A stretch of 43,325 nucleotides of DNA, the filler included, from Jimgerdemannia flammicorona (lineage: Eukaryota), in the NCBI GenBank assembly GCA_003990765.1. It is 2 parts of 2 records of this genome, joined end to end, with 100 filler letters (N's around TTAATTAATTAA, not from the genome) between each part and the next. Parts side by side here need not be neighbours in the genome. Positions count along the whole stretch, not along the records: positions 21,715 to 43,325 come from RBNJ01001423.1; 1 more part is not named here. One strand, 5' to 3'. The notes below the pieces were generated by a model. The model was not told where the DNA came from. It searched no databases and saw nothing but the letters and a program-made list of their open reading frames with translations. This document shows positions 1,326 to 36,500 of this stretch, one piece after another. How positions within the stretch are numbered: the stretch's first letter is position 1; each line of letters begins with the position of its first letter. The position numbers and the translations under genes are program-made.

Positions 1326-1417
1326 TCACTTAATAAGATAATATATAAAAATATAATATACTGAGCATAATTACAAAATGACTATAAATATACTAAAAGA
1401 ATGCTATCTATCTATAC

Positions 1418-1900
1418 TATAATATAGTGGATATATAACTATATAAATATATCAGATTTCTATATTTTGAAAACTTAATCATCTTTGACCTTAGGATGTA
1501 GGGGTAGATGAGTTTGAAATATATCTGCCTGTAGGCTTACTAGTTTCTTTACTTTCTCTTTACTTTGAACTATTTCAATCTGAGATTTATTTACTCTAGA
1601 TACTGAAGATATTTATACAAGTTTTGCTAGCTATAAGAAGTTAAGTTATGACTATATTTTCTATGAGTCACTTTTTATAAGTATTAATCCTTGATATCTA
1701 TTAAATCATTAATGATTATTAAAACTTTAACATCTGTGAAATCTTGACATTTGTAAAGAGTTTAACATTTATAAAAACTTTAATATTTGTAAAATAACTG
1801 CTATTTATAAGACTATGCTATATTTGGGAATCAGATTTAGGTATTGTGATTAAATATCTATTCCTCTGATTCATATTCCTGATTTAGATCAACTGTTATA
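1418..1900 (-). repeat. 3' LTR of dUTPase-Gypsy copy 1
   Basis: Direct repeat of 8914-9408. Termini eroded from TG..CA to TA..TA. Internal ~20-bp ACATTTGTAAA repeats. Confidence 0.9.
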
Positions 1901-6345: not shown

Positions 6346-7514
6346 GACTCAATGTCCTGTAGATTTTTATTGTAAGGGAACCTAGACTATATAGGCTAAA
6401 ACCCTCTCCCACCACCCATCAAGCACTGCCCCCTCATTAACCTAGGCTAGCTATTGTTCAGCAGCTTAACCATGCCAGGTACAGTAGGGCCTATATTGGT
6501 CAGCACCTCATTCTGTGCACTATACTCTCCCTATCACCAGGGAGAACCCAGCCATATACCAATGACCAAAAGTGTATGCCCGAGACTCCAACATATGTAC
6601 AAGGCCACACTTAAGCTGAATAGAATAGCCCCTGTCACCCCAAAGAGAATGACAGGCAAAGAAAAAACCCTCATCAAAGTACATCACAGTGGGTAGGGCC
6701 TGGTTCTCCCAGTTGAGATGAGTAAAGGACTTATACATGAGGCAGGAGGAGACCCCCAATACCCCACTACTCAAGCCTGTAGGCCTTTATCATATTGCCA
6801 TATCAGCTCTCAGTTTTAGTTGAGTGTAGCCAAGATGCCTAAAATAGGTAGCCTTGGGCCCCCTGCCCCCTCCAATAATTAGGGCTCAATCTGCTGAATT
6901 ACCAAAAGAAGCTAAGAGTAATACCTACCACCTAACCACTCTGTACCAATCAAAAGGCCCCCCAAAGCAGCACCCACCCCAGCCCCAACAACCACCCCCA
7001 GCCTGGCACCCTACTGGTTTACTATAATCACTCTTCCTCCTATCTGTGATAGCTATCTCTCCTCCCATTCTGACAATACCTGAAAAGCAGTCACCTATAC
7101 CAGAACTATACTCGCTGGGAAGCTCACCAAAGCCAGAGAGCTCTACCACAGGTACTGAGGACCTGCAGATAACCTATACTGAGCACTTGATGCCCAAGGT
7201 TGACTGACTCCCTATGCAGTCTGTGATATACTGAGACAGCACCCTATTGGCGATGGCAAAAGAAAGAAGGGACTACACCAAAACAGATGCACTCCAGATA
7301 TAGCCAAAGGCACCAGAAATCACAAAAAAGTGGAGAAGACACTGATCTGATACTGATAAAGGGACAACTCATCACCATTGCCTTCCCCCCACTGCCCTGC
7401 AATAGGTACTGCAAATCAACCCAAGGTAGAGGGGGTAATAGTTGTGGAAAGTGGACTTGGAAGGTTGTCTACCAACCCATTGCGACCAGTAAGATAGCAG
7501 AGAAAGGGGCATTA
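6283..7514 (-). mobile_element. 5'-truncated LINE insertion (essentially the 3' UTR) with poly(A) tail
   Basis: T59 at 6283-6341. Perfect 16-bp TSD GTTCCTTAGTTATCTC at 6267-6282 and 7515-7530. The body aligns with 21715-22208, 23778-23975 and 24067-24530 of the full-length LINE. Confidence 0.93.
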
Positions 7515-8913: not shown

Positions 8914-9408
8914 TATAATGTGGCAGACACATAACTGTATAAATATATCAGATTTCTATATTTCTAAAACTTAATCTTCTTTGACTCTGCAGAGTCCTTA
9001 GAATATAGGGATAGGTGGCTTTAAAGTATATCTACTCATAGGCTTACTAGTTTCTTTGTTTTCTCTTTGCTTTAAACTATTTTGATCTGAGGTTTATTCA
9101 CTCTAGATACTGGGAATATTTATACAAGTTTTGCTAGCTATAAGATAGCTAAGTTATGACTATGTTTTCTGTGAGTCACTTTTCATAAGTATTAATTCTT
9201 GACATCTGTTAAATCTTGGATAATTATTAAAACTTTAATATCTATGAAATCTTGACATTTGTAAAGAGTTAAAAATTTATGAAAACTTTAATATTTGTAA
9301 AATGACTACTATTTGTAAAGCTATATTATATTTGGAAATCAGATTCAGATACTGTGATCAAATATCTATTCCTCTAATTTATGTTCCTGATTCAGATCAA
9401 CTATCACA
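8914..9408 (-). repeat. 5' LTR of dUTPase-Gypsy copy 1
   Basis: Begins TGTGATAG on the minus strand, is a direct repeat of 1418-1900 and is flanked by the TSD ATAC. Confidence 0.9.
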
Positions 9409-9970: not shown

Positions 9971-11544
9971 TGTCATATAGTAGTTGCTGAGTCCTTCAAA
10001 TATGTCAGATTCTCTTCAAGGTGTATCTTTTAGATTAACTCAAGTTTATTATAAGTAAGTTCTTATTGGAGTGCCTTCCCAAGATCTTATAGTCCTCAAA
10101 CTTCTTATCTTTAAACTGCCTTGTTATTTCTTTAGATTACTTGCAAGGAAGTGTGTGTAAGTGAACTTGACTGACTTTATTTCAGAAGAAATAAGAAGGG
10201 TATTTATACAAAATATAATTCAATAGTTGCTAAGATATAAAGCTAAATATAAATTCTAATAACCAAATAAAATGCTGGAATATAGAAAACTGCCAAGTTT
10301 CAGGGTTGGCACAGATGGTTGCACAGGTTCAGGATGCTGGTATAATTTTGGTGATATAGGAAAATAGTGCTAGAATAATCCTGAGTCATAAGATCAGAAT
10401 GCTGGTGGAGGAACAGCTGTTATACAGGAAAAGGATGCTGGCATAATTCAGTGTAACTAAGGGACTTAGAGCAGAATGTTCAGGACCATGGTGGCTTCAT
10501 CCTCATCATTACTGTCCTCAAAGGAGATGAGATCTGTGAACATTTCAGTCTTATTGCATAGGTCATATTTCACATGCTTTGCACATATTGCATAGAATGA
10601 CATCATTGCCAATGACATCATTATGTTCAGTGGAAGCAAGAACAGAGAGGTCTGGGGCTCTCCAGTCTATGAGGTTCTCTTCTACAAAATAGGGAACAAA
10701 TGTGGGGTCTTGGGGAGGTCTAACCTGGATGCTTGGGCCTTGGAATACTGAGATCAATCCTTACAGAAATTGATCTGGGTTGTCCTGGAGGATGGGATGC
10801 CAGAAGTCTTCTACTTTATCACTATTGAGGGTGATGGTGGACTGGGCTTCTGTAGCCACTATGACTTCTAATACATTGATATGGTAGGCTGACAGATCTC
10901 TGAAATCTGAGACTCTAACATACTCCAAGTTGGGGATCAGCCATGGTGCATGCCTGAAGATCTGATGAATCTTCTTAGCTGTCCTTACTTCTCGTATATC
11001 CATGAGAGTGGTATCTTGTAACTCTTGGAGGCTGGTCTGTGGGAACTCCTGGCAGAGAAGGTTTTCTATTTCATACTTCTGAAATATTTAGAGGTATTTG
11101 GTAGCAATGGTGATTCTTGTTTCCATCTTACAGTAGTAGAGAATAAAGTGATAAGAATCTGCAGTACCCAGGTTGAGGCTAGAAGTCCTTATATGAGTCC
11201 TCATAGCTCTTCTGATGTCTTGGAATATCTTTTCTTTGACTGAGATACCTTAGTGGTTTCTTGACTTTGAGGTTTAGTGAGCAGCAGGCATTTTGTTTGT
11301 GATAAGTCTTTGAGCTATTTTGGGATTAGTGGGTCTTGTTGAGTTACTGCTACTGTGGTTCCTTGATCCTTCTTTTATATTCCTCAAAATGCCTGAACTG
11401 TGGTCACAATGACTCACAGTTGGTCATCATTACTCATCTCATAGTCTGAGTCATACTGTATGATCTTCTTGTATTCTGATCTGGTGGCTTGCAAGAAAAG
11501 GCTGTCTTTTGTGCTAATGTCATCATTCTGAGGACACTGTTATA
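9971..11544 (-). mobile_element. 1.57-kb solo LTR containing an internal ORF (copy A)
   Basis: Minus strand T(G>A)TAACAGTG...TATGACA, 4-bp TSD ATAG (9967-9970 and 11545-11548). Colinear over its whole length with 22209-23773. Contains a TATAAATA...AATAAA core. Confidence 0.88.
10466..11291 (-). pseudogene. LTR-encoded accessory ORF, about 275 codons (copy A)
   Basis: ATG at 11291 (MPAAH*...) is in frame with the track ORFs 10761-11003 and 10563-10757. Several TAA stops are CAA in copy B. It ends ...MFTDLISFEDSNDEDEATMVLNILL*. Homologous to 31958-32788. Confidence 0.85.
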
Positions 11545-18920: not shown

Positions 18921-18927
18921 AACTCAA

Positions 18928-20428
18928 TATATAGGTACATAACTTCTATTCCATCAGTTTTATGTCATTTCATCAGTAATATATGAAATATATGACTTAG
19001 GCTTTTTGAATAAATCACTTTGGTTAGCAGCTAGAACTTCTCTAGTTTATATACTATACTGATGAACATGGGTGTGAGCCAGAGCACCAAAATGAGTATC
19101 TCTACAATGGCTCCTCAGTAATGGAAAATGCAGTCTCATTATAAGAGATGCTTGCTAATAGTGATATTGAAGTTCTTTCTAGTGACAGAAGGTAATTACA
19201 AAAATGGCATCTGCCTAGATATTCAAGACAATTATGAAGTCCTCCATGATGATAGAAGACAATTATAACAAAGGTGCCCACACAGATATTCAAGGTAATT
19301 ACAAGTTCTCTTAGGCAGCAGGCAAAGTTATCTCTAGTATTAAGACAATTATAAAGCCCTTCCAAGTGGTCAAGGTACAAAGTCCTCTCTGATGGCAGAG
19401 ATTCTCTACTAGGTATTAGAGATAGCAATTATGATAATAAGGATACCTGTCAATAAGGCTGATGAAACTAGTATATATGAGACAAGTAATAAGATCAATA
19501 GAAATAAACCTAAACCTAAAGTATGGATATAGTAAATAAAGCCAGTATAGACAACAAGGTCAAAAGTATGGACAAAAGTACAGATGAGGTAAATGCCAAT
19601 AAGGTCCAAAGTATAGATAATAATGACAACTATATCAACCAGGAATAACACCTATATCTAGAGTGAGTACTACTAACAACATCAGTAGCATGGATACTAC
19701 CAATATCAGCAATATAGATATCACCAACAATATCAGCAGCATAGATACTAACAATAATATCAGTAGCATGAGTACTGCTAACAATATCTAGTGAATATAT
19801 CAATATAGCTAATAATAATAAAGATAACATCTGATTAATAGATTTTGGCACAATATAGTATATGATACCATACTATATATACTAGGAACAATAACAGTCA
19901 GCACTAACAATAACATACATTTCAAAAGACATGAGAATAGCAATAGCTATAGTAATAGTATTAGATTAAGTAGGAGTATATAGTCATCTGGTAAAGTCTA
20001 ATAGCTAATCAGACACTTTTTAGGCTATAAAAAGCCTATATATTTGCATATATATTGACATCCCTCATTTATGAGCAGATTACATATGTTATATTTTGTA
20101 GATATTTTAGATATTTTGGAATACTTTTTGACTCATGAAAATTCCTTTGATATAGGATTTTATAATTGTAATTCTGGGTTATATATAGTTCTAGTTTTTT
20201 ATATATATTGTATTGCTCTTTTATTCTAGTTTGTATTCTTCTTTTTTTTAGATATAGTTGATAGTTTTTTGTTTTGTTTTAGTATACATATCCCTTTGAG
20301 TAGAAGTGTTGAAAGTAACTTGATATATAGGTACATGACTTTACATCATATACCATTCTATCAGTTTTATGTCATTCCATCAGTAATATGTAAAATACAC
20401 AACTTAGGCTTTTTTGAATAAATCACTT
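18928..20428 (+). other. ~100-bp direct repeats (18928-19020, 20324-20428) flanking a degenerate low-complexity coding-like segment
   Basis: TATATAGGTACAT...ATCAGTTTTATGTCATT...ACTTAGGCTTTTTGAATAAATCACTT occurs twice. The internal 24-27-bp repeats translate as N/S/T-rich NISSMDTTN-like units (~19670-19800). Confidence 0.55.
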
Positions 20429-20445: not shown

Positions 20446-21614
20446 TAGTGCTCTGAACAAGTCAATTCAAATCAAATCCAGATTTGATTTGTCACATGAT
20501 GGTTCAATCCGAATCTCAAATCTGAAGCCATCCGAATCAACTCAGATTAATCTGAATCACCTCATCTGAATTGCCCCATCTGAATCACCCATCCAAACCA
20601 CCCCAATCCAAATCACTCAATCCGAATCACTCAATCCAAATCACTCAATCTGAATCACTCAATCTGAATCATCCAATTCGAATCCTCTAATTTGAATCCT
20701 CCAATTTGAATCCTCCAATTTGAATCCTCCAATCCGAATCCTCATCTGAATTCTTCAACCAAATTCTCCAATCCAAATCCTCCACATGACTCATATGCCA
20801 GACACATCCACAATATATTACACACACATGCATATACAATACACATACATGTATATACATGCACATACAAATACGCAAACACACATATCGACAGATCAGT
20901 CTTCAACAGTTCATAGTACCAATAATGCTTCAAGTCAAACATCTCTGATAGTTCCACACCTTCCATGCAATTCTTGCTCTGAAATCTGGCAACATTGTGC
21001 TAAGATAGGAGATGATGTTGTTTGTAATTATTGCAGGTAAAAAATTAAGATGCACCTATTGACTTGTTTGACACACACATGATATTGTTTCATCCACCCC
21101 CATAAACTGTACCAGCCAGAAGTTCAAAATGCTTGGTGGTACAACCTCGAACATGAATCAACACATAAAAGACAAGCACTCTGACAAAATCAAAAAGAAT
21201 ACAGAGACAAATAAAATCGACATCCAAGCTGTGGTGGGTACATTTATCCAATTGCCCAACTATTTCTGTACCAACAATGCCATTTAATCAAAAATATTTA
21301 GCCATACTCTTTGGTAGAATTTCGAAATCAGCTCATTTGCTGGATTGTGTATACAGACCAGCCATTCACAACCATTGAGAGTGATCAATTGCATAGCATC
21401 TTTGGTCTCCTCAAGCATGATTTATATTTGCCAAGTACCGATACTATTCGCAAAGATGTCCTGGAGGCCTATAGGAAGGAGCACAACAATCTCTGCCAGA
21501 TACTTCAGGTAAAATAAGGGCAGCACTGTGACCTTTGCAAGCTGAATTATATAAAAGAGCTCACCAATTTAACCTTACATTCAATAAGCAGAATTCGGCA
21601 GGCAAAATTTTGTT
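20446..21614 (+). mobile_element. 5' part of a hAT DNA transposon (TIR, subterminal repeats, transposase N-terminus), cut by contig end
   Basis: The TIR TAGTGCTCTGAACAAGTCAA is shared with three MITEs that have 8-bp TSDs. Clustered TCYGAATC repeats at 20505-20780. BED finger and hAT motifs follow. Confidence 0.88.
20950..21508 (+). CDS. hAT transposase N-terminal exons with BED zinc finger (partial, intron-containing)
   Basis: Removing a GT-AG intron at 21037-21115 gives SEIWQHC...VVCNYCSQKFKMLGGTTSNMNQHIKDKH (BED finger). A later exon reads WIVYTDQPFTTIES...LYLPSTDTIRKDV, a typical hAT segment. The start codon and intron 2 limits are not determined. Confidence 0.8.
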
Positions 21615-21714
21615 NNNNNNNNNNNNNNNNNNNNNNNNNNNNNNNNNNNNNNNNNNNNTTAATTAATTAANNNNNNNNNNNNNNNNNNNNNNNNNNNNNN
21701 NNNNNNNNNNNNNN
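21615..21714. other. Artificial 100-bp contig spacer (N44-TTAATTAATTAA-N44)
   Basis: Symmetric N runs surround a 12-mer that places stop codons in all six frames. Confidence 0.95.
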
Positions 21715-22208
21715 AACAAACTCTAAGTCCTACAGATTTTATTAGAAGAGAACCTAAACTATATAGGCCAAAACCACCCCTCACTCTCTCCTAAATATTG
21801 CATTCTCATTAACCTAGGTTTACTATTATCTAATAGCTAGATATAGCAGAGCTTATTATAGCCTATACCTTATTCTGTATACTATACTCTCCCTACTACT
21901 AGAGAAAACAACTATATGTCAATAACTAAAAGTATATATATATATATAATCTCAACATATATAAGACTATGCTAGAGTTAGATAACAAAGTCTCCACTAT
22001 CCCAAATAGAGTAATAGATAAAGAAAAAACTCTCCAAAAGATATAGAATAGTAGGTAGAATCTAGTTCTCTCTAATGGAGTGAGTGAAGAACTTATATAT
22101 AAGATAGAAGAAAACTTCTAATACTCTACTACTCAAGCCTGTAAGCTTTGATTATATTACTATATCAGCTCTTAATTCTAGTTAAGTATAGCCTAAATAT
22201 GTACCTAA

Positions 22209-23773
22209 TGTAACAGTGATCTCAGAATAATGATATCAGCATAGAAGACAGTCTTTTCTTACAAGCCACCAGATTGGAACACAAGAAGATCATATGGTAT
22301 ATAAGATGAGCAATGATGACCAACTGTGAGTCATTGTAACCACAGTATAAGCATCTTGAGGAATATAAAAGAAGGATCAAGGAACTACAGTAATAGCAAC
22401 CAATAAGACCCACTAATCTCAAAATAGCTCAAAGACTCACTACAAATAAAATATCTGCTGCTCACCAAACCTCAAGGTCAAGGAACTACCAAGGTATCTT
22501 AGTTGAAAAGAGGATGTTCCAAGACATCAGAAGAGCCATGAGGACCTGCTTAAGAAGGACTTCTAGTGTCAATCTGGGTACTAGTAATTCTTATCACTAT
22601 ATTCTCTATTACTGTAAAATGGAAACAAGGATCACTATTGCTACTGAATGTCTCCAAATATGGTAGAAGTATGAAATAGGAAACCTTCTCTGCTGAGAGT
22701 TTCTACAGGCCAGCACTTAAGAGCTACAAGATGCTACTCCCATAGATATATACAAAATAAGGATAGCTAAGAAGATCCATCAGATCTTCAGGCATACACC
22801 ATAGTCAATCTCCAACTTGGAGTATGTTAGAGTCTCAGATTTCAGAGACCTGTCATTCTGCCATATCAATATACTAGAAGCCAGGGTGGCTACAGAAGCC
22901 CAGTCCACTATCACCCTTAATAGTGATGAAGTAGAAGACTTCTGGTATCTCATCCTTTAGGACAACTCAGACCAATTCCTGCAAGAATTGATCTCAGTAT
23001 TCCAAGGCCCAAGCATCCAGGTTAGATCCCCCCAAGACCCTACATTTTTTCCTTATTTTGTGGAAGAGAATCTCATAGATTAGAGAGCCCCTGATTTCTC
23101 TACTATCAAATGTGATAATATTATCAGCAATGATGTCATCTTGCATGACATATGTGAGATATATGATGAAGCATGCAAAGTATACAAAATGTATGACCTA
23201 CATGATGATAATGATGAGACAGATAAGATGTTTGCAGACTTCATCTTCTTTAAAGACATCTTGATCTCTAATGATGAAACCTCTATAGTCTTGAACATTC
23301 TGCTCTAAGTCCTTTGGTTATACTGAATAATACCAGCACCAGTATTCTGATGTAATACTGAATAATGCCAGCACCAGTATTCTGATGTGATACTGAATTA
23401 TACCAGTATTCTGAACCTATATAACCATCAGTGCTGACCCTGAAACTTAGTAGTTTTTTCTGTTCTGGTATTTTATTTTAGTTATTGAAATTTATATTTA
23501 GCTTTATATCTTAGTAACCATTGAATTATATTTTGTATAAATACCCCTCTTATTTTTTCTGAAATAAAGTTAGTTCCAGTTCACTTATATATAATTTCTT
23601 GCAAGCAATCTAAAAGATAATAAGACAGTTTAAAGATAAGAAGTTTGAGGACTATAAGACCTTGAGAAGGCACTCTAATAAGAACTTACTTATAACAAAC
23701 TTAAGTTAGTCTAAGAGATATATCTTGAAGAGAATCTGGCATATTTGAAGGACTCAGTGACCACTACATAATA
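22209..23773 (+). mobile_element. 1.57-kb solo LTR containing an internal ORF (copy B)
   Basis: TGTAACAGTG...CATAATA with 4-bp TSD CTAA (22205-22208, 23774-23777). The LINE 3' region resumes on both sides. TATAAAA 22364, TATAAATA 23536, AATAAA 23563; 35-bp tandem repeats at 23322-23412. Confidence 0.88.
22451..23308 (+). pseudogene. LTR-encoded accessory ORF (copy B)
   Basis: ATA (from ATG) TCT GCT GCT CAC CAA..., ATECLQIW*KYEIG..., AKKIHQIFRH..., FLQELISVFQGPSIQV..., MFADFIFFKD...VLNILL*. Contains stops and frameshifts. Confidence 0.82.
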
Positions 23774-23974
23774 CTAACTAAGATAGTCTTGAGTTCTCCA
23801 ATAATCTCAAATAACTAGAGTCTAATCTTATATATCACCAAGAGCTATCAAAAGTGATATCTACTACTTAACTACTTTACATTAATTAGAAAGTCTCACT
23901 GATATAGTATTTGTATCAGTTCTAATAACTATCACTAGTCTGGTATCTGACTGATCTATTATAATTACTTTTCT

Positions 23975-23975: not shown

Positions 23976-24043
<68 letters not shown>

Positions 24044-24052: not shown

Positions 24053-26995
24053 TAATTACTCTTCTGCTTATCTATGATAGCTATCTCTCTTTTTATTTCA
24101 ATACTACCTAAAAAACAGTTATCTATATCAAAACTATACTCACCAAAAAGCTTACTAAAGCTCAGAAGACTTTATCACAGATATCAAGGATCTGTAGGTA
24201 ACCTATACTAGTACTTAATATCTAAGATCAGCTAACTCTCTATATAACTTATAATATACTGAGATAATACCTTATTGATGATAGTAAAAGGAAGAAGATA
24301 CTATACTAAAAACAGATATTCTTCAAATATAGCTAAAGATATGTATTAGAAACTATAAAAGAATAGAGAAAGTACTAATCTGATACTAATAAAGGGCAAC
24401 TTATCATTATTGTCTCTCTTTTATAGATACAGCAAACAAACCTAAAATAGAGAGAGTAAAAGTTATAGAAAAGAGACTTAGAAGATTATTTATCAAAATT
24501 TTATAACTAATATAGTAGCAGAGAAAGAGGCTGAGCACTAGGTCTCTTTATTAACTAATTTATAACAAATATATAGTTTTCATATCATTATTAGTAGCTC
24601 CAACTCAGCTCTATTCTACTCTACTCTACCTTAATATACTCTCTCTCTCCCATCTCTACTTTCTTAAAAACTATTAAATTATTAACTATCTCAATCTATC
24701 TATTACTTCTCTCATATCTCTTCTATCAAATATCAATAATAATCTTCTTAAAAACTTCACTCCTTCTACTAGTCTGATAGAATATCTACTATCAATCTCT
24801 CCCATCTTATCATTCTTTCTTCCAAAATCATCTACCTTCTATTTTTGAATATATATAACTAGTATCTAGCTAGCTCCATCAATACTATTAATACTCACCC
24901 AATAGTAAACTATTTATTACCAATATACTCTATCAACTACTCTCTAAGTCATCTTATCTTCTCTTCTCTCCACTATCTCACTATCTTTTAAAGTTATTTT
25001 TCTTATAATATTTTGATTCAAAGTAGTAATTATAGATAATAATATTAAATCTATTGATGATTCTCATAGCTTCTTTAAGAGAGCTTAGTTCTTTTAGTCT
25101 GATCTTAACTTATATATTCTCTTTTAGACCTTAGATATAGTAGTCTATTTTTTTATCTTTTGTAATATTAGGTAGTTTTAAATAAATTATATATTATAGA
25201 TTTATATACTTGATGTTTTTTTTTTATAGTCTCATGAACTTTGCTATTTATTATCAGTCTATTAAATATAAATATAGTACTCTATTCTACTACTCAATCC
25301 CCCTAGAGAGACCCCCCCTCCACACTCTTATACTTGAAGGTTACCTTATTCTTTACTACTATAACTCTCTCCCTATTCTATCTACAAATTTTCTCTAATA
25401 AATAATACCAGTAACCTCTCTGCAGTAGACCCCATTCCAGTCATCAGTCTATCAAGACATCTACTATCAACTCTTCTCACCTTGTCAGTTACTCTCTTAA
25501 ACCTAATCACCTCTCTTTCTCAAAAACAAATAGCCAGTATCTAGCTAATTCCACTTATATAGCTAAAACTCAATCAATAGTGAGCTACTCATTTTCAATC
25601 CCCCTTATCAATCTATCTTACAAATTATCCCATTGACCCCTCTTATTATCCCCCCTTCTCACAATATCTAATCTATTCTCAACTACTAACCAAAAGTCTT
25701 CAAGTATCTCATACTCTCTCAGCCAATGTTCTGGTATCTACACAAACCCCCCTTTCTATTCTATATTATAATACTCTTCACAATCAAATTGTCTACCCTC
25801 TATAAGATGTTCTGACTGAAAGTTAAATATGACATTTCTCCTCAGCAAGCACTATCAGACTATCCAGAACTTAGATAGCAGCTATCTTTATATCTCAGTA
25901 CTTTAGACCCAAACTCTATTCTAGTTTCATCTCTTTTCAATATTAGCTATCTGCCAATTACTGAGTCATATATCTTATTCCAACCTTCTCTGATACTCTA
26001 CTTCATTACTAATATTAAAGTCAATTAGTGAAGTACCCCTCAATAATACTTGATCTCATCTTCATATTACTGAACCCCATGGTATCTCTCTCTCAGCCCT
26101 CTGCTAGTGAAGACCAATATGGTGCACCCCATCAACTACTCTCTACCAGAAGCCCTTGTACTGTATGTACCTACTATTATAAAGCCCAACCAAAGACAGT
26201 AGATCCCCAGTAGAGTCTCTCAGTGAGAACCTCATCTCTCAGATCTTTTTTATCAGAGGAACTCAGCTACTATCCCTAAATTCTACAGCTCTCTTCAGTC
26301 ACTAAGCTCTCAAACAATATAGCCTTTTTAGGAAGTCAACCAGTCCAAGGCCTCCTCTATCCACTGATAATGACAAAATTTCCCAGTTAATCTGACTCTG
26401 TCTCTTAGCCCAGATCTAACCTTTAGCTAGCTTTAATAGTCTCTTCACTACCCAGGCTAGAAAGTACTAAATATTATAGCTTTAGCAGCCAGTAGATATT
26501 CAAGATTGAAACACAACCTATCAAAGAGATGTGAAAGCCTCTCTAGCTCTGCAGGATCTCTCTCCAAATAGTCACCTGCTGTTCTTACTAAATTCTAGGT
26601 AGAACTGACCTATAGACTGAAAGATAGATGTCTAAGTATCATATAGTATCTCTAATAGGGACAATTGCTCTAATGACATCTCCTCCTACTAAACTATTGT
26701 CCAACACCATCATTTCATACTTATGTCAGTTGAGTTTAGCCTCAGAATATACCTCATATCACTCTACCATCTTCTAAAGTTCTTTGATATCTACAACTGA
26801 TCTCAGTTCAACTACTATATTATCTGCAAATACTTCAACCTTTCAGATAATTCCAAATACTGATAGTTTCTCTACTTTTTGCCAAATCCTATCCATCAAT
26901 AGCTTTAGGGACAGAGCATATAAAATAGGAGACAGCAGATCTCCCTGAGAAATACTTCTATCTAGAGGGAATACTACCCTCTGATGACTATTATA

Positions 26996-27578
26996 TAGTA
27001 CTCCTAATGAGTCAATTTAATTTGGATTGATTTTGGATTGAATCCCATCTGGATCAACTTGGATGGAATTTGAATTCCATCTAAATGGATTCAAATCAAC
27101 CATTGTTTTGATTTCCAAATTAGACAATTAAATATTTATATCAATAATTTGATAAATAATCATCTAAATTTGATAATCTTGGTATCATTTGAAAGCCCTT
27201 AATAAGACCTACCTAATGATACTAAGAATATTGAGATTAGATTATACATTGCTGAGTTATAAAGGAAAATGTCTGAATTACCAATTTTGGAAATTATTCA
27301 ATTTGCTGATTTTGGAAATTCTATCAAATAGAACATTTTCCTTAATATCTCAGCAACATATAATCTGATTTTAATATTTTTGGTATCATTAGGAAGGTCT
27401 GATTAAGGGCTTTCAAATAATACTAAGATTATTAAATTTGGATGATTATTTATCAAGTTATTGATATAAACATTTAATTGTCTAATTTAGAAATCAAAAT
27501 AATGGTTAATTTGAATCAATCCAGATGGAATCCAGATGGGATTCAAATTTCATCTAGATTGACTTATTTAGAGCACTA
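26996..27578. mobile_element. hAT-family palindromic MITE (583 bp) inserted in LINE RT
   Basis: TIRs TAGTACTCC.../...GAGCACTA, 8-bp TSD C(T/C)ATTATA (26988-26995, 27579-27586), ~270-bp inverted arms. Confidence 0.92.
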
Positions 27579-29063: not shown

Positions 29064-31316
29064 TTCTGCGAGAACACCAGCTCTATGCCAAGATGAGCAA
29101 GTGTAAATTCTACCAAGACCAGATTGAGTACTTAGGATACATTATCTCTGCTGAAGGTATCAACGTGGACCCCTGAAAGGTATCAGTCCTCAAGAATATT
29201 CCTATTCCTACTACCCTCAAGCTACTCCAGTGCTTTCTGGGTATTACTAGTTATTACTGAAGGTTTATCCAAGGATACTCTGCTATTGTAGCCCCATTGA
29301 TCAGCCTGGTCCATAAAGGAGTAAACATCAAAGCTGAATGGACCCCCAAATGCACCCTGGCTATGGACCATCTCAAGAGACTCCTTATCGAGGCTCCAGT
29401 GCTAATTGCACCTGATCCTACCAGACCATTCACTCTGACCACAGATGCCTCTGACATTGCTATTGGAGCAGTGCTCAGCCAAGAAGACCGCCCAGTGGCC
29501 TACTTTTCACAGAAGCTCAAGCCAGCTGAGATCTGATATACCACCCATGAGAAGGAACTCCTGGCTATTATCACTGCACTCCAGGAATGGTGCCATTTCC
29601 TCTTTGGACAGCCATTTGTGGCCTATACTGATCACCATGCACTGCGGTATATTTACACAGCCTATGCTAACCCATAGACAAGCCCGCTAGATGGAAATCA
29701 TTGCCAACTTTGATATAGAAATCAAGTATATCCCAGGCAAAACCAACCGTGTGGCTGATGGTTTCTCCAGATACATGGAAGACAAGCTTGTCTTCATGGT
29801 TGAAGTAATTAGAGACCTTACCCAAATGATCAAGGAGGGCTACCAGCAAGACAGCCCCCTGATGAATTTCCTTCAATTCTGCCAAGACCCAGAGGCCAAG
29901 ATTCCAGAACCCATGAGACAAATGGCCAAGAGATTCACCTACCATGATGGACTTATCTACAGGGACCATGATAGAGTGGTTGTACCTAACAATGACACTC
30001 TGCGACTCAAAATCATGCAGGAACTCCATGATACTCTTGCAGCAGGACACTTTGGTTTTGAAAAGACCTACAACCTCCTCTTAAGAGAGTTCTACTGGCC
30101 AAAGATGACCAAGAATATCAAAGACTTTGTGGCCTCATGCGAGATGTGCCAAAGGTTCAAAAGTAGTAACAAGCTACCAGCAGGACTCCTGCAACCCTTG
30201 CCTATCCTGAGCCACAATTGGGACCAGATTGCAATGGACTTCATTGTCCAACTTCCCAAGACCAAGGCAGAATGAGATGCCATCATGGTATTCATGGACC
30301 GCCTAAGTAAACAAGCCCATTTTGCACCCACCAAGACCACTACTACAGCACCAGAGATTGCCAAGATCTTTCTCAACCAAGTATTCAGACTATATGGCAT
30401 GCCTAGCACTATTGTATCTGACTGAGATGCTAAGTTCACAAGTAATTTCTGGAAGGCATTTTTCTCCCTCCATGGAACCAAGCTGAAGTTCTCTACTGCT
30501 TACCACCCTCAGACTGATGGTCAAACCAAGCAAACCAACAGGACTCTCAAACAGATGCTTAGTATCTTCTGCTGTTATAAGAAAAATAATTAGAACAAGT
30601 ACCTAGCCCATGCTGAGTTTGCCTACAACAATAGTCAGCAAACCTCCACAAAGAAGACTCCATTCTTCCTGAACCATGGTCAACACCCAAGGACCCCTAG
30701 TACTACCGTGAAATCAGCAGTCCCAGCAGCCCAAGATCTGGCTGAGACCATTTCTGACCTTACGCAAATGACAAGAGATGCTCTCATAGAAGCACAAGAC
30801 TATCAGACCAAGTACGCAAACTTGAAGCAAAGAGAAGCCTCCTACAATATTGGTGACAAAGTCATGCTTAGAACAGACTACCTCCACCCAGACACTCTGG
30901 CACAACAACCAGCCAAGAAACTCCATGCTAGAAGAATTGGACCATATAAGATCATGGAAAAAATCAGTGAAGTCAACTACAAGTTGCAACTTCCCCACAA
31001 TATTTGAGTATACCCAGTGTTCCATATCAGCCAATTGGTGGACTACTATGAGAACCCATTCTCCGAGTATACAGTTCCACCACCACCCCCAATTAGGATC
31101 AATGATCACAAGGAATTCAAAATTGAGGAAGTACTTGACCACAAGGTCCACAAATATCCCAAAACAGTCAAGCGCTTTTTCCTGATCAAGTGGAAGGGTT
31201 ACCCCACCCATGATACTACCTGGGAAAAAGAAGAAGCCCTGAAGAATACACGTGAAGCCCTCCAGGACTACATGGAAATACTCACCCCCCAGCAAAGGAA
31301 GGAACTACAGCTCTAA
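29064..31316 (+). pseudogene. pol: pol remnant: RT C-terminus, RNase H, integrase, chromodomain
   Basis: [53 protein letters not shown]...GHFG...CEMCQ, MDFI, SD*DAKFTS, RIGPYKI and EEVLDHK...FLIKWKGYPTHDTTWE. Confidence 0.95.
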
Positions 31317-31957: not shown

Positions 31958-32788
31958 ATGCCTGCCACCCACCACTAAACTGCCTGTCATAGCCAGCCCC
32001 TCCCAAGCCAGGTTGACTGCCTCTTTGGACACATCCAGGTTGCTATCCAAGGAAGGAACTGCCACTCAGAGGCCCTTAACCTCTTCAGCCCAGACCTAGG
32101 ACAGTATGTCCTTGACTGCTATGAAATTATTGAAAGGGCCTACCTCGCTACCAGCTGCCTGAAAATCTGGCACGAATATGAAATCGGTCACCAGCTTCTC
32201 TAACATACAAGTGGCCTACCCACGGACCAGGTCTCTGACTGGACTCACCTAGACAGGTATGAGCAAAGACTTGCCAAGAAGGTCCATCAAATCATGCGCC
32301 ATGCATCCTTCGTGATTCCCAACCTCAACTATATACAACTGAAGGACTTCCAGAACCTCTCTTTCCCTGAGGTCAATGCCCTAGAAGTCAAGGTTGCCCA
32401 AGAGGCCAACTCCTGGATTGCCCTCAAGTCTACTGACTATGAACCCTACTGGAGCCCCCTCCTGAATGACAACTCTGACCAATGGCTCCAAGGTCTCTCT
32501 GACCTCTTTGAAGGACCACCTATCCAAATGGATATTCCCAGGCATGAAGATCAAGAGCCCTACTTGGATGGTCCCAACTGCATCAGATGGAGAATCCCTA
32601 CACCAGCACCTATTCCAATGCAAGGACCATTTGCAGACCTCATTGACTTCTCCATTCTGGACAGCAAGCTATCTGCAATCACCACCCCCCCTGCCCTTGA
32701 AGAAGATGGTAATGACCCTGAGGAGGATTCCCCACCTTTTTCTCCTCTGGTTCTCAATTTCTCAATCAATGAAGACATTGATTTCTAA
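31958..32788 (+). pseudogene. Accessory ORF of unknown function (276 codons, two in-frame TAA) between pol and PPT
   Basis: Single frame from ATG 31958 (MPATHH*) to TAA 32786-32788, which overlaps the PPT. Internal TAA at 31976 and 32201 only. It includes track ORF 32294-32788. End-to-end homology to the solo-LTR ORFs. Confidence 0.88.
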
Positions 32789-32799
32789 GGGGGGAAGAA

Positions 32800-33592
32800 T
32801 GTAATAGAATGGACAAATGATGAACAGATGGGACACAATGAATGACAAGTGATCACATGACCCAGCGAGCGATGATGTTATCATACGATTGAGCGCAACA
32901 TATAAATAACGATATAAACGAATGATGCAAATGAATGATGCAGAAAACAATATTTAGCTTATCCCTGACAACCGGTGCTGCAGCAACAGTTGCCACAGCT
33001 GCTGATCATTGCCTAGTAATTGAGGTCCTGATCACAAAGATATTCTTTACCAAAAACTACCTGACAAAGGTCGTGATCATAAACCTTATTATAGTTACCA
33101 AATTAGTCACTCATACTTAGTCAGAAATCATGGACCAACTTGTATAAATACCCCCCAGTTTCCATCCGAAATAAAGCAGTTTTAGTTCAGTCCTTGATAT
33201 AAGAATCAAGTCCCCCCCACACACACACATTCCCCTGAGTCTTAGTAATGACATCTAAGTGACTCTAGTGTTTCTGACTAAACTCCAGAAGTCTAGCTAA
33301 CTTCTGCCAGAACTGAGACCGGTATATAAATCCCCAAAGACTTAAGTAAACCCATTGAACCTGAATTCCAAGGTGAATTCAGTCTGTGTACAGCAAAGAA
33401 CAAGACTCTCAAAATAGGGCACAAGAGAAAGACCTTTGAAAGATAAGGCACTGCCACTACAACTACTTATAAGTGAGTGCTTCCTCAAACTGAAGGCTTC
33501 TTGATACACATTGTATACTAAGTCCCTAAGTAATAGTCCACTTCTCTAATTATCCAAAGAATAAGAGAGGGGTAGAAGTGAGAGTTATTACA
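32800..33592 (+). repeat. 3' LTR of the chromovirus (793 bp)
   Basis: Follows the PPT, has TG...CA termini with a 7-bp inverted repeat, TATAAATA 33143 and AATAAA 33170. Confidence 0.9.
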
Positions 33593-36500
33593 GCTAAGTT
33601 GCTCTACCTTCTTCCAACTCTCTAGACTGCCACACCTACCTCCTGCATTCCTCTCTCTATCTGTTCTGTCCAATTGTACCATATGAATTATATTGAAGTC
33701 TCTCTCAAGTATCTCCACTCTTACCTCCACAAATACTCCACTATCTAAAAGACTATCAATCTACTCTACATGCTTGCCCCTAACTACAGAGCAGTAGCAA
33801 GATCTAACTACAATTGACTCTTATCTAGACTGATGCCACTCTCTCCAAACCATATGATTTCTCTAGTTTCTGTTATCATATATTTTTCTATACTCTTTTT
33901 ACACCAGCAGCCCAATCTTGCTATTCTAGACTATAGCTCTACTCTATTCTCTTATCTACTCCTGTTGCTCAAGATCTCCCTCACATTATATATCTTATAG
34001 AAGAAAAAGATCAGTCTCTAATTCCTTCAACTAAGTAAAAATATTATATTACCTCCCAGAACCCCTCAGGCCATTTACATTTAATGAAAAAAATATTAGT
34101 TGTACTGTTCATAGAAAATAATATTGAAGTAGATATATTCTCTTCACAACTCTATATTCACTTTCTCTCTAGTTAAGTTTAATCTATACTTAGTAGTAGT
34201 CTCTACTCCCTCAACCTACTTAGCTTTCAGTTCAATCAAAAGCTCATCTATTACTATATCATCCTTCAATTTCATCTCCTCTTAGTACTTCAAGTATACC
34301 TCTTATCAAATTTCCAATCCATGTCTCCATTTCTACCAGAAGACTGTATGCTCTCTAGCTATTACTACCATCTCTGTCTCTCTCACAATATCTACCTTAT
34401 AACTCTCCTCATCCAAATATACTACTAGTACCTCCTTCACCAGGGCCTCTACAACATCTTCTCTCTACAGAATTCTTATTCAGTACTCCTTACTGATAAC
34501 TCACAAGTCTACATCCTCTAGCTCCTCAGCTACTAAGTTGTTCATCATCTGATATATCTACTGCAAGTCTCCAATTTTCTTACTCTCAGGGGTCACTAGT
34601 TAGCCAGTCTCAAGCATTACAGTATCTGCTCTAGTACTTGCAAACCCATCTCACTCCTCCTCAGGGATATCTACCAGTTCCTCCTCTCCAATCTTAACTA
34701 TCTGCTCTCTACTTGTTATCTCAGATACTCTAAATTAAACATAGCGAGCCCCCAATATCTTCACATTCTCACCAGCTATTGGCTGGACATCCTGAGTCTT
34801 TCTTTCTATATCCTCACTCTCCTTCCATATCTCTAGTATGCTATTATTATAGAAAGTCTAATCTCTTATCTCCTGGCTCCAACTCTCAGCCTTAGCACTC
34901 CTCTTCTCCTTCTCACTAGCTCAGATACTCTCCTGAGCACTCCCAGTAGTCTTGTCCAAACTCAGCAATACCTTCTCTGTCTTCTTCAAACTAGCTAGCA
35001 GCTCTCTCTGTCTTACCCAAATATGCTTTCCATTTACTACCTCTAAGTGATTTAAGTCTATATAAGTCTTCTATATCTTAGCCTACTATTTCACTGCCCC
35101 ACTGAGCTCTTTCAGCACCTCTACCAAATCCTCCTCCTTCTATAAACTCCTCTTCACTCTCATTACCTTGCAGATAAATGCCCCCCATATCAGCACTAAG
35201 GACTAGTCTCTCAACTTCTCTATAACCTTCTTTTCAGCCAGCTAGAGCCTGATATCCACATCTCTCATCCTGAAAGAAGTCCCCTCCCAGACCTAGAAAC
35301 CAATATTAACTACCTTGCCATACTCAGCCATGGTCTTCTCTACTCTCTTCCTCATCTTAGTTATTATTATAGACACTCTCTTCACTAGTAGCTAGACTAT
35401 TCTGGGGTCCCATCTCAGACAACAAGTCATCAGAACCACTACTGCATCTACTGTTAGCCCTATCTTCAATGTCTCCTCCAAGAGAGTAGCCTCCTCAAAG
35501 CCCACCTCTACTCTCTTAAGCTTCTTTAGGAACTTCACTGAGGCAGCTCCAGTCATCTGCTCAAAATTAGCCTCAAAATTATCTTTACTATCACTGCTAA
35601 GCCTCAGAAGTACAGTATAATTATAAACTCCAAGATCAACTTTTTGAGTAATAGAGTCACTGCCAGATCCATTATACCATCAGCCAGGTTCTCTAGCCCC
35701 TACTGGTCTCTCTGTATAGTACCACTATCAGCTATTATATTTCTTCTTATTTGCCATTACACCTCTATCAGCAGTTATACTACTACTCTTAGCCACAGCT
35801 CCTCCTGTCCTTATACTTGCTTCCTAAGACAAATAGCCTCCCATCCTCCCTAGAGTAGCCTTGTCTTTTCTCTCAGCTATATCAGTCCAAGTATCTGTCA
35901 GCTATCTACTATTCTTTATCTTGTCAGCAAAGCTTAATGGTCCAGTCCTGTCTCTATTCTCACCAGATATCAATTGCTCTTCAGACCCTTCTCTGCCATT
36001 CACATCTCCAAAAACCCCCATTCTCAAACTATAACTCCTCTCTACATATTGCTAGCCAAATGCCCTAGATCTATCTAACTCAGCATATCTATTAGAACTC
36101 TTGCTTGAAGATATGTTGATAGTATCTTTTCTCTAAATTGTTATAAAAAGTATTATATAATATAAATTATATCAGAGAAAATAGCTATTGATCTGTATAT
36201 ACTTGGTGTTTACTAGTTTATTTCTAACTAATTTAATAGTATTAGTAGACTTAAACTACTTATAGAGAGCTTTCTTAAATATTATAATTCTTATTTCTCA
36301 GAGATATAATAGTTATAATATAATTATACTACTAAATAATTATATTTTCTTAGAAAAGTATAGTAATAAATTAAATTTATATATATATTTATTTTTATTT
36401 TTATAAGTTTAAAGTACTAAACTAATTAAAAGATTTAAATATTAGTAGACAGTCTTTTTTAATAATTATTAAAAGTATCTGACTTAAGTAGCTTAAAGCT

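What the first reader, a model, noticed from the sequence alone, without database searches (positions are those of the whole stretch)
22209..23773. LTR that encodes a complete ~275-codon gene: solo LTR as self-contained expression cassette
Seen: two independent 1.57-kb insertions (9971-11544 minus, 22209-23773 plus), each with TG..CA-type ends and a 4-bp TSD. Each contains an upstream TATAAAA (22364), the ORF (22451-23308), 35-bp repeats and then the normal LTR TATAAATA...AATAAA core (23536/23563). That core has the same 27-nt spacing as in the chromovirus LTR (33143/33170). Knowledge: LTR-encoded ORFs are known in retroviruses (MMTV sag, nef overlapping U3) but are unusual for fungal retrotransposons. 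Inference: an upstream shift of the PPT/U3 boundary swallowed the accessory gene. Every provirus would then have two copies, and the gene would survive LTR-LTR recombination.
Basis: partly seen in the sequence, partly recalled or inferred. Interest (0 to 1): 0.8.

Follow-up and report, generated by a model that had tools for sequence, protein, structure and literature searches.

The report
Solo LTRs carrying a decayed accessory gene
Two old 1.57-kb insertions are most likely lone terminal repeats of a gypsy-type retrotransposon that carry, inside the repeat, a now-broken copy of a previously undescribed accessory gene; a related element in the same window carries that gene outside its repeat.

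Summary
The observation largely holds. Units 22209-23773 (+) and 9971-11544 (-) are real, independent insertions. Each has a 4-bp target duplication and TG..CA-type ends (one end decayed per copy), and copy B has a paralogous empty site in the window.

They behave as LTRs. The TATAAATA-27nt-AATAAA core and the last 60 nt resemble LTRs of two other elements in the window. In soil-metagenome contigs the 3' end runs into a TGG... primer-binding-like sequence. The complete element E1 in the window has a decayed form of that same sequence. No internal terminal repeats were found, so the ORF lies inside the LTR.

The "complete gene" claim fails for these copies. Copy B has six in-frame stops and no ATG. 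Copy A has four stops and a frameshift.

Intact relatives exist: 13 metagenomic proteins with no Pfam or PDB match. A third homologue lies at 31958-32788, downstream of a chromovirus pol. It is followed directly by a polypurine tract plus TGTAATAG, so it lies outside that LTR.

Not shown: a full-length element bounded by two such units, any expression, or the protein's function. The host is an unidentified soil eukaryote and was not shown to be fungal.

The parts
22209..23773 (+). Unit B: putative solo LTR (1565 bp)
   Evidence: Aligns end to end with unit A. Flanked by CTAA/CTAA. Empty-site paralogue at 6839-6842. Metagenome contig depth rises from about 27 to 734-2130 inside it and falls to 49, then 0.4, after it.
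22205..22208 (.). Left target-site duplication CTAA of unit B (right copy at 23774-23777)
   Evidence: Read. The paralogous site has one CTAA.
22209..22222 (+). LTR 5' terminus TGTAACAGTGATCT
   Evidence: A transition-tolerant motif matches only 5 places in the window: the 2 unit starts and the 3 E-family LTR starts (the motif was built post hoc). First-60-nt similarity to E LTRs is mixed, z from -0.9 to 3.3.
22364..22370 (+). Upstream TATA box (TATAAAA), about 85 nt before the ORF start
   Evidence: Invariant between copies A and B. The chromovirus homologue has GTATAAATACCC about 70 nt before its ATG. Function is inferred.
22451..23308 (+). Decayed accessory ORF, copy B (start codon ATA, 6 in-frame stops, no frameshift)
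   Evidence: 70% identical to P0001, tblastn E 1.6e-111. hmmsearch i-E 2.2e-97.
23317..23421 (+). 35-bp tandem repeats between the ORF stop and the LTR promoter
   Evidence: Copy number varies among metagenomic copies (joints). The repeats start TGTAATACTGAAT, compared with the chromovirus LTR start TGTAATAGAAT. That resemblance is short and was not tested statistically.
23536..23568 (+). LTR core: TATAAATA, then AATAAA 27 nt from its start
   Evidence: Homologous to the chromovirus LTR core (z 8.3, 0/300). The core alignment with the E1 LTR is shown.
23569..23773 (+). R/U5-like 3' part of the LTR
   Evidence: The last 60 nt are similar to the last 60 nt of the E1 LTRs (z 3.6-4.2, 0-2 of 300). 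In metagenome contigs it is followed by ACT + TGGTGCCCATTGGCTGG.
9971..11544 (-). Unit A: second putative solo LTR (1574 bp). TSD is ATAG on the + strand at 9967-9970 and 11545-11548.
10464..11291 (-). Decayed accessory ORF, copy A (ATG kept, 4 stops, then a frameshift)
   Evidence: 71% identical to P0002, E 2.6e-107.
31958..32788 (+). Third homologue of the accessory ORF, in the chromovirus 3' region (277 codons including the terminal stop, 2 internal stops)
   Evidence: 62% identical to P0007, E 2.6e-82. hmmsearch i-E 1.7e-82.
29261..31316 (+). 3' half of the chromovirus pol: RNase H, integrase, chromodomain
   Evidence: Pfam RT_RNaseH_2 2.2e-22, Integrase_H2C2 1.5e-23, SH3_Tf2-1 7.3e-13, Chromo 2.7e-12.
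32786..32799 (+). ORF stop overlapping a polypurine tract, TAAGGGGGGAAGAA
   Evidence: Read. Its role as PPT is inferred from the signature.
32800..33770 (+). Inferred chromovirus 3' LTR: starts TGTAATAG, core at 33143/33170, ends ...CTCTACA
   Evidence: The 3' limit comes from where homology to the interrupted element resumes at 33778. The 5' LTR is absent, so the start is inferred.
8914..9408 (-). 5' LTR of the complete relative E1, followed by ACT + TAGTGCCTATTGGCTAAT at 8913-8893
   Evidence: Over the 24 nt after the LTR end, that sequence differs from the metagenomic loose end only by 5 C-to-T or G-to-A transitions.
1415..1900 (-). 3' LTR of E1, preceded by the PPT CAGAAAGAAGT. E1 has a 4-bp TSD, GTAT.
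6839..6842 (+). Paralogous empty site (single CTAA) for the insertion of unit B

Best explanation
Units A and B are old solo LTRs of a Ty3/gypsy, chromovirus-like retrotransposon lineage. In that lineage the U3 region contains a small accessory gene of about 270-285 codons with its own TATA box.

Proposed layout of the intact LTR:
- att end TGTAACAG
- TATA box 1
- accessory ORF
- 35-bp repeats
- TATAAATA, then AATAAA 27 nt from its start
- U5, ending in CA

Inferred mode of action: transcripts from TATA box 1 include the AATAAA signal and would be polyadenylated within the same LTR, giving an mRNA of about 1.2 kb. Transcripts from the LTR promoter start at or beyond AATAAA and would read on as genomic RNA.

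Inferred history: in the ancestral arrangement, kept by the chromovirus at 29261-33770, the gene sits between pol and the polypurine tract. In the unit lineage the U3 boundary moved upstream of the gene.

Both window copies were inserted separately (4-bp duplications), lost their partner LTR and internal region by LTR-LTR recombination (inferred), and then decayed by CpG deamination. Neither now encodes the protein.

The protein has a basic N-terminus, a helical core and a strongly acidic C-terminal tail. It is most likely a nuclear regulator of the element itself, either a transactivator or an anti-silencing factor. That assignment is a guess based on composition only.
For: Insertion as a unit:
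- Perfect 4-bp TSDs at both copies.
- An uninterrupted paralogous site for B.
- One metagenome contig joining 22200 to 23783 (weak, side 22).

LTR nature:
- TG..CA ends.
- The unit has no internal terminal direct repeats; the longest repeats other than the 35-bp array are 12-24 nt.
- The core is homologous to the chromovirus LTR (z 8.3, 0/300). The E1 LTR carries a similar TATAAATA...AATAAA core (alignment; whole-LTR z 3.0 against the chromovirus LTR, 3/300).
- The last 60 nt are similar to the E1 LTR ends (z 3.6-4.2).
- E1 is a complete element with two LTRs, a PPT, a PBS-like site and also a 4-bp TSD.
- In contigs from two soil studies the unit's 3' end continues as ACT TGGTGCCCATTGGCTGGTGAT: 2 records in X1 and 1 in X2. 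E1 has the transition-decayed form of the same sequence right after its 5' LTR.
- Two X3 records break at 22205 and 22209 with different flanks.
- Contig depth is high only inside the unit.

Gene nature:
- 13 related proteins with open frames.
- Each stop in B lies where intact relatives have a sense codon.
- Three loci in the window match the family profile at i-E 1e-82 to 1e-103; everything else is at 4.4 or worse, apart from A's shifted C-terminus.
- Codon-position differences between the unit ORF and the chromovirus ORF are 0.52/0.37/0.64 over 196 core codons.
- DNA upstream of the two ORFs is not detectably similar (z 0.2-0.5).

Boundary shift:
- PPT + TGTAATAG lies directly after the chromovirus ORF. 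The units have no PPT there.
Against: - No full-length element with two 1.57-kb LTRs was seen. No genome is held, and four pattern or protein scans of contig collections found no relative.
- No PPT-to-unit junction appears among the 21 loose ends shown; 154 more were not shown.
- Depth in the first 36 nt of the unit is as low as in the flank (bin 22176-22244: 27 in X1). The 5' boundary in metagenomic copies therefore rests on two X3 records and on the window's own TSDs.
- The PBS junction proves only that the 3' end is an LTR end. It does not prove that the 5' LTR of those copies contains the ORF.
- 5'-terminal similarity to E LTRs is short (about 14 nt) and nominally significant against only one of three E copies.
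- The chromovirus LTR start is inferred from the PPT/TG signature alone, because its 5' LTR is missing.
- Expression, the promoters, the poly(A) site and the protein's function are untested.
- Both structure models are poor (pLDDT 46.7 and 42.8).
Confidence: 0.68

Rival explanations
1. The unit is not a recombination remnant. It is a short linear reverse-transcription product (ORF + LTR) made when plus-strand synthesis starts at a second, upstream polypurine tract, and integrase then inserts that product directly. Full-length elements would keep short LTRs with the ORF outside them.
For: The chromovirus relative has the ORF outside its LTR. The 35-bp repeats after the unit's ORF resemble an LTR start. 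The ORF region and the 3' LTR part have summed depths of about 650-1900 and about 2000, which does not exclude a 1:2 ratio.
Against: Regular use of an upstream PPT would, after the second strand transfer, itself produce long LTRs at both ends (established reverse-transcription scheme), so this rival tends to collapse into the main explanation. Two independent insertions and two further metagenomic flanks share the same 5' end. No precedent was found in my literature searches.
Confidence: 0.12
2. The units are internally deleted elements: the start of a short 5' LTR fused to the pol-distal region, the ORF and a short 3' LTR.
For: The unit's first about 35 nt share TGTAA..GAATAATG..CAGCA with the 35-bp repeat after the ORF. 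The best local alignment of the E1 LTR lies collinear with the unit's last about 430 nt, but is not significant (z 2.1, 15/300).
Against: No terminal direct repeat longer than 24 nt at 75% identity is present in the unit. Such a derivative lacks the 5' R-U5 and PBS and could not transpose, yet A and B have different TSDs and different flanks, so they are separate integrations with the same structure. The metagenome family has the same boundaries at high depth.
Confidence: 0.07
3. The ORF is not a retrotransposon gene. It is a host or foreign gene fragment captured once, with no role for the element, and the open frames in metagenomes are chance survivors.
For: There is no Pfam, PDB or Atlas relative. 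The family is tiny: 13 proteins among 5.8 and 1.84 billion searched.
Against: Homologues sit at the same place (3' of pol, 5' of the LTR core) in two element lineages that share only 32-39% protein identity. Codon-position differences follow the coding pattern 3>1>2. Three subfamilies keep the same N-terminal MPxxR start and the same motif order. The flanking DNA has diverged beyond recognition.
Confidence: 0.08

Closest known systems
MMTV sag (superantigen ORF inside the U3 of the LTR); recalled, not tested here
   Same: A complete accessory ORF lies within U3. It is therefore present in both LTRs and kept in solo LTRs.
   Different: MMTV is a mammalian betaretrovirus. No sequence relation was found to any Pfam or PDB entry. 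The element here is of the gypsy/chromovirus type, and expression was not shown.
Foamy-virus tas/bet region with internal promoter, and HIV/SIV nef overlapping U3; recalled
   Same: An accessory gene lies 3' of pol/env, is driven by an internal promoter, and reaches into or abuts U3. The protein here has an acidic C-terminal tail, as a transactivator might.
   Different: No homology was found. The promoter is only a TATA motif here, and the function is unknown.
The chromovirus in this window (29261-33770)
   Same: It has a homologous ORF with its own upstream TATA box and the same TATAAATA-27-AATAAA LTR core.
   Different: Its ORF is followed by PPT + TG, so it lies outside the LTR (inferred). 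The LTR is about 970 bp rather than 1565 bp. Protein identity is only about 32-39%.
Element E1 in this window (1415-9408, minus strand, carries dUTPase)
   Same: It shares the 4-bp TSD, the LTR start TGTRAYRGT(T)GATCT, a similar LTR end, the same PBS-like sequence and the same core.
   Different: Its LTR is about 490 bp, and no homologue of the ORF was detected in it (best i-E 8 or worse).
Additional ORFs of plant LTR retrotransposons (Ogre/Tat/Retand-type aORFs); recalled, with search listings only
   Same: They are extra ORFs of unknown function next to gag-pol in gypsy-type elements.
   Different: As far as I recall they lie in the internal region, not in the LTR. They are unrelated in sequence as far as tested (no Pfam hit).

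Membership tests
LTR of a Ty3/gypsy (chromovirus-like) retrotransposon | 5'-TG...CA-3' termini | tested here: met
   B reads TG..TA and A reads TA..CA, so each copy has one transition-decayed end. Metagenomic copies end in GTGACA.
LTR of a Ty3/gypsy (chromovirus-like) retrotransposon | Short target-site duplication (4-6 bp) flanking the insertion | tested here: met
   CTAA/CTAA for B and ATAG/ATAG for A. Empty site at 6839-6842. The complete relative E1 also has 4 bp, GTAT.
LTR of a Ty3/gypsy (chromovirus-like) retrotransposon | Primer-binding site (TGG...) just after the 3' end in full-length copies | tested here: met
   Loose ends in 3 contig records from 2 studies read ACT TGGTGCCCATTGGCTGG. 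E1 has the same sequence, decayed, after its 5' LTR. The priming tRNA was not identified, and the window has no tRNA gene.
LTR of a Ty3/gypsy (chromovirus-like) retrotransposon | Polypurine tract just before the 5' end in full-length copies | tested here: inconclusive
   None of the 21 loose ends shown has it, and 154 were not shown. Both window copies are solo.
LTR of a Ty3/gypsy (chromovirus-like) retrotransposon | Occurs as a direct pair around gag-pol | not testable with these tools
   No genome is held. Contig scans found no relative.
LTR of a Ty3/gypsy (chromovirus-like) retrotransposon | Sequence homology to LTRs of elements with pol | tested here: met
   Core against the chromovirus LTR: z 8.3, 0/300. 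Last 60 nt against E1 LTRs: z 3.6-4.2. The 5' terminus shows only a 14-nt match.
Functional protein-coding gene (in these two copies) | Open frame with a start codon | tested here: not met
   B has ATA in place of ATG and 6 stops. A has 4 stops and a frameshift.
Retrotransposon accessory-gene family (new, unnamed) | Conserved protein with intact members and a coding-type substitution pattern | tested here: met
   13 proteins. Motif blocks are shared by three subfamilies. Codon-position differences are 0.52/0.37/0.64.
MMTV sag / retroviral U3-encoded proteins | Sequence or fold relation to Sag, Nef or Tas | tested here: not met
   No Pfam family at E up to 1. No PDB sequence at E up to 1. The models were too poor for a fold search. 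The resemblance is one of gene position only.

The most novel reading that the evidence does not exclude
The accessory protein is a retrotransposon-encoded regulator that acts on the element's own LTR, for example on the 35-bp repeats next to its gene. It would work as a transactivator or as an anti-silencing factor in a host that methylates CpG very heavily. By moving the gene into the LTR, one lineage made every LTR, solo LTRs included, a dispersed self-contained source of that factor. This would be a retrovirus-like regulatory layer in a non-animal gypsy element.
Probability: 0.15. Interest if true: 0.8.

Novelty: new variant of a known kind. Interest (0 to 1): 0.55.

Why it matters
Genes inside LTRs are textbook for a few retroviruses but are hardly described for LTR retrotransposons outside animals. 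My five text searches found no such report, although they were narrow.

The same window holds both arrangements of one accessory gene: outside the LTR in one lineage and inside it in another. That gives a concrete case of how a U3 boundary can move and how an accessory gene can become duplicated in every provirus and survive LTR-LTR recombination.

The gene family itself is new: no Pfam or PDB relative, and 13 proteins in billions searched. It appears to be under coding constraint, so it is a candidate for a new kind of transposon-host interaction factor. The two window copies themselves are dead.

Tried and rejected
Tools that gave no access:
- Whole-genome search: no genome is held.
- Cluster look-up: switched off.

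DNA context of relatives:
- The search for related loci in metagenome contigs: 536 pattern matches, none related.
- My own degenerate pattern for a conserved peptide: 0 matches in each of metagenome contigs, genome contigs and viral contigs.
- P0008 in viral contigs: none.
- The PBS-like 20-mer: 0 in viral contigs. One hit in a bacterial MAG (L001), which I take as chance for a 20-mer in 596 Gb and did not pursue.
- The same motif in the window: one 3-mismatch hit at 16070, and 4 of 100 shuffles do as well. Rejected as chance.

Sequencing runs:
- Only 4 soil-metagenome DNA runs were listed, 2 of them holding 0.13 and 0.06 of the words. No RNA holder was listed.

Protein identity:
- No Pfam family and no PDB sequence.
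- Atlas hits all scored 0.83 or lower with unrelated names.
- No fused forms of 600-2000 aa among the 8000 candidates scored (weak evidence).
- Two AlphaFold models had pLDDT 46.7 and 42.8. They were too poor to use, so no fold search was run.

Other checks:
- Rfam found nothing in the window, and there are no tRNA genes.
- The Atlas search on the integrase gave no usable host taxon.
- DNA similarity between the regions upstream of the unit ORF and the chromovirus ORF: none (z 0.2-0.5).
- Chromovirus PPT/LTR-start segment against the whole unit: not above shuffles.

Ideas rejected:
- TRIM/LARD-type mini-element, because there are no terminal direct repeats.
- DNA transposon, because there are no terminal inverted repeats beyond TGT.
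- RIP as the mutational process. CpG o/e is 0.06, and the many TG-versus-CA doublets between the copies point to CpG deamination.
Full report
THE OBSERVATION

The window holds exactly two copies of the unit (blastn).
- Copy B is 22209-23773 on the + strand. Copy A is 9971-11544 on the - strand.
- They align from end to end. Over the unit columns there are 1248 identical positions, 230 transitions, 44 transversions and 95 gap columns, giving 82% identity.
- Similarity stops at the same bases in both copies.
- Copy B is flanked by CTAA at 22205-22208 and 23774-23777.
- Copy A is flanked by ATAG on the + strand at 9967-9970 and 11545-11548.
- B begins TG and ends TA. A begins TA and ends CA. Each copy has therefore lost one canonical end by a transition. 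Metagenomic relatives end in GTGACA.

Copy B lies inside another repeat. Its two flanks (21715-22193 and 24053-24531) are 68-70% identical to 6342-6831 and 7025-7510. The paralogue is uninterrupted across the insertion point and has a single CTAA at 6839-6842. So the whole 1565 bp went in as one piece with a 4-bp duplication.

- TATAAAA at 22364.
- 35-bp repeats at 23317-23421.
- TATAAATA at 23536 and AATAAA at 23563.

The 27-nt spacing recurs at 33143/33170.

THE ORF IN THE TWO COPIES

It is not complete.
- In B the frame from 22451 starts with ATA, has six in-frame stops and has no frameshift.
- In A the ATG at 11291 survives. There are four in-frame stops, and the C-terminal block is in another frame.
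- The window as a whole has a CpG observed/expected ratio of 0.06.
- The two copies differ at many TG-versus-CA doublets. This is the signature of independent deamination of methylated CpG in each copy, not of RIP.
- Each stop in B lies where intact relatives have a sense codon.

THE ORF IS A REAL GENE FAMILY

I read B through with X at the stops and searched 5.8 billion proteins.
- That search gave five proteins at E 1e-30 to 1e-101 with open frames, including one of 271 aa that starts MPAAR.
- A profile search of 1.84 billion representatives gave six hits at E 0.001 or better. Three of these (P0007-P0009) are more distant members, and one (P0010) is a low-complexity protein at E 6e-4 that I discount.
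- A second word-indexed search with the profile gave 12 hits at E 0.001 or better among 8000 candidates scored.
- In total there are 13 family members. All come from JGI or ENA records on contigs of 567-4848 nt. None carries a Pfam domain.
- Three subfamilies share the N-terminal MPxxR start and the same order of motif blocks: WxEYEI, AKKIHQxFRHxPW, NPxLQDNPDQxLQ and FxGPxI.
- No member of 600-2000 aa was found among 8000 candidates (weak evidence).
- There is no Pfam family at E up to 1 and no PDB sequence at E up to 1. The Atlas gave nothing above 0.83.
- Two AlphaFold models were poor (pLDDT 46.7 and 42.8). They agree only on a helical N-terminal half and a disordered tail. I ran no fold search on them.
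- The protein has a basic start (net +8 over the first 60 residues of P0002) and a strongly acidic last third (net -14 over residues 211-270).

A THIRD COPY IN THE WINDOW, IN A DIFFERENT CONTEXT

A tblastn search and a profile search of the six-frame translation found one more homologue at 31958-32788 (+).
- It is 62% identical to P0007 (E 2.6e-82) and 39% identical to P0001 (E 1.6e-46). No other place in the window scores better than i-E 4.4, apart from A's shifted C-terminus.
- This copy has an ATG and only two internal stops.
- It lies about 640 nt downstream of the stop of a chromovirus pol. That pol is identified by RT_RNaseH_2 at 29261-29533, Integrase_H2C2 and SH3_Tf2-1 at 29691-31004, and Chromo at 31008-31313.
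- It has GTATAAATACCC about 70 nt before its ATG.
- Its stop codon runs directly into AAGGGGGGAAGAA followed by TGTAATAG. This is the classical polypurine-tract/LTR-start junction. The LTR core at 33143/33170 follows 343 nt later.
- In this relative the gene is therefore internal, between pol and the PPT.
- Caveat: the element is 5'-truncated, so its LTR start is inferred from the signature alone.

Comparing the unit ORF with this ORF codon by codon, over 196 core codons, gives differences of 0.52, 0.37 and 0.64 at positions 1, 2 and 3. The DNA upstream of the two ORFs is not detectably similar (z 0.2-0.5). The protein was therefore conserved while its surroundings diverged.

IS THE UNIT AN LTR?

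Several independent lines say yes.

1. Shared core. The roughly 120 nt around the TATAAATA-AATAAA core are significantly similar to the chromovirus LTR (z 8.3, 0 of 300 shuffles). The E1 LTR carries the same TATAAATA...AATAAA arrangement (alignment).

2. Resemblance to a complete relative. The window holds element E1 on the minus strand.
- Its LTRs are at 1415-1900 and 8914-9408, and it carries dUTPase at 5171-5464.
- A PPT, CAGAAAGAAGT, precedes its 3' LTR. Its TSD is 4 bp, GTAT.
- Its LTRs start TGTGATAGTTGATCT and TATAACAGTTGATCT. The units start TGTAACAGTGATCT and TATAACAGTGTCCT.
- A transition-tolerant motif built from these starts hits only those five places in the window, counting the LTR start of a second E copy at 38608 (the motif is post hoc).
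- Formal support for the 5' similarity is mixed. First-60-nt z scores range from -0.9 to 3.3, with the best at 2 of 300 shuffles.
- The last 60 nt are clearly similar to both E1 LTR ends (z 3.6-4.2, 0-2 of 300), but not to the second E copy (z 0.5-1.4).

3. Behaviour in soil metagenomes. I laid contigs of four soil-metagenome runs on 21900-23950.
- 1513 contigs laid in X1, 377 in X2, 22 in X3 and 5 in X4.
- Summed depth is about 23-27 in the left flank and the first bin of the unit. It is 734-2130 through most of the unit, then 49 and 0.4 beyond 23763.
- Two X1 records and one X2 record, from two studies, run off the 3' end with the same letters: (GTGACA) ACT TGGTGCCCATTGGCTGGTGAT. That is a TGG-initiated, PBS-like sequence three bases after the CA end.
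- E1 has ACT TAGTGCCTATTGGCTAATAAT in exactly that place after its 5' LTR. Over these 24 nt it differs only by 5 C-to-T or G-to-A transitions.
- Two X3 records break at 22205 and 22209 with two different flanks.
- One X1 contig joins 22200 to 23783, as an empty site would (depth 2, side 22; weak).

4. No internal terminal repeats. Nothing in the unit beyond the 35-bp array exceeds 12-24-nt chance-level matches. The unit is therefore not a small element with short LTRs of its own, nor a 5'LTR-deletion-3'LTR remnant.

Taken together, the boundaries of the integrated DNA are LTR boundaries and the ORF lies between them.

WHAT IS NOT SHOWN

- No copy with two such units around gag-pol was seen.
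- No PPT was seen in front of a unit. Only 21 of 175 loose ends were displayed.
- The first 36 nt of the unit have flank-level depth in X1 and X2. This could be clipping of CpG-dense, much-decayed sequence, but it is not explained.
- The PBS junction shows that the unit's 3' end is an LTR end. It does not by itself show that the upstream LTR of those copies contains the ORF.
- The argument that it does rests on the TSDs, the empty site, the identical 5' boundary in two separate insertions and the lack of internal repeats.

HOW IT MOST LIKELY WORKS (inferred)

- In intact LTRs the upstream TATA box would start an mRNA that contains the ORF and the AATAAA. That mRNA would be polyadenylated within the same LTR, so any LTR, paired or solo, could express the protein.
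- The LTR promoter lies 27 nt before AATAAA in all three LTR families of the window. Genomic transcripts would probably start at or beyond the signal and so ignore it at the 5' end. This is the solution used, as I recall, by retroviruses whose poly(A) signal lies in U3.
- The 35-bp repeats sit where U3 enhancers usually sit. They begin TGTAATACTGAAT, close to the chromovirus LTR start TGTAATAGAAT, and they occupy the same position just after the ORF stop. They may therefore be the remains of the former LTR start, left behind when the U3 boundary moved upstream. This resemblance is short and untested.
- The protein's function is unknown. From its basic head and acidic, hydrophobic-studded tail I guess a nuclear regulator of the element, either a transactivator or an anti-silencing factor, with low confidence.

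HOST

- No cellular gene was found in the window: Pfam hits are all retroelement domains.
- The unit's near-identical words occur only in soil metagenomes. 165 X1 contigs are 99% or more alike.
- The Atlas search on the integrase gave no usable taxon.
It is plausible but not shown.

COMPARISON AND NOVELTY

- In position the gene resembles MMTV sag (inside U3), and foamy-virus tas/bet or lentiviral nef (3' accessory genes reaching U3, with an internal promoter). These are recalled analogies, and no sequence relation exists.
- Extra ORFs are known in plant gypsy elements, but as far as I recall they lie in the internal region.
- Five text searches (listings and abstracts only, plus passages of PMC3248453) turned up no LTR-embedded gene in a fungal or other non-animal LTR retrotransposon. 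These searches were narrow and are not proof of absence.
- I rate this a new variant of a known kind: an ordinary class of element with an unusual gene placement and a new accessory-gene family.
- The two copies in hand are dead.

Noticed in passing
window 1-43325: CpG is almost absent across the whole window (observed/expected 0.06; 0.0-0.21 in 3-kb blocks), while TG and CA are slightly over-represented. No cellular gene was found, so the window is a stack of decayed retroelements.
   Followed up: partly
window 1415-9408 (-) and 38097-42666 (-): There are two copies (about 79% alike) of a gypsy-type element with a dUTPase domain (5171-5464 and 41866-42279). The first copy is complete, with about 490-bp LTRs, a PPT, a PBS-like site and a 4-bp TSD (GTAT). 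Solo-LTR-like fragments of the same family lie near 18015-18312 and 503-775.
   Followed up: partly
window 13777-17631 (+) versus 26719-28919 and 33778-35689 (-): Another RT-bearing element is present twice in opposite orientations, with strong G-over-C skew on its coding strand. The minus copy is split by the 3' half of the chromovirus (about 28920-33777), which lies in the opposite orientation and lacks its 5' half.
   Followed up: partly
window 23536-23568, 33143-33175 and the E1 LTRs (for example near 9100): Three otherwise dissimilar LTR families share TTGTATAAATA..(27-nt spacing)..AATAAA. This suggests a conserved promoter/poly(A) module with a very short R region.
   Followed up: partly
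window 6283-6341 and 23976-24040: There are very long uninterrupted T runs of about 59 and 65 nt. Each lies inside copies of the repeat family that hosts unit B.
   Followed up: no
window 18680-18932 and 20549-20784: There are two tandem arrays: a 22-bp unit in 11 copies (also read as an 88-bp unit in 2.8 copies) and a 14-bp unit in about 14 copies.
   Followed up: no
window 27068-27537, 36989-37222, 37234-37466, 11758-12617 and 21609-21720: There are several large palindromes or inverted repeats: self-complementary stretches of 230-470 nt at 72-83% identity, and a perfect palindrome with 62-nt arms at 21609-21720.
   Followed up: no
proteins P0011 and P0012: P0012 looks like a CpG-decayed version of P0011, with Arg replaced by Cys, His or Trp at many positions. 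The same decay process therefore acts on other subfamilies of the accessory gene in metagenomic sources.
   Followed up: no
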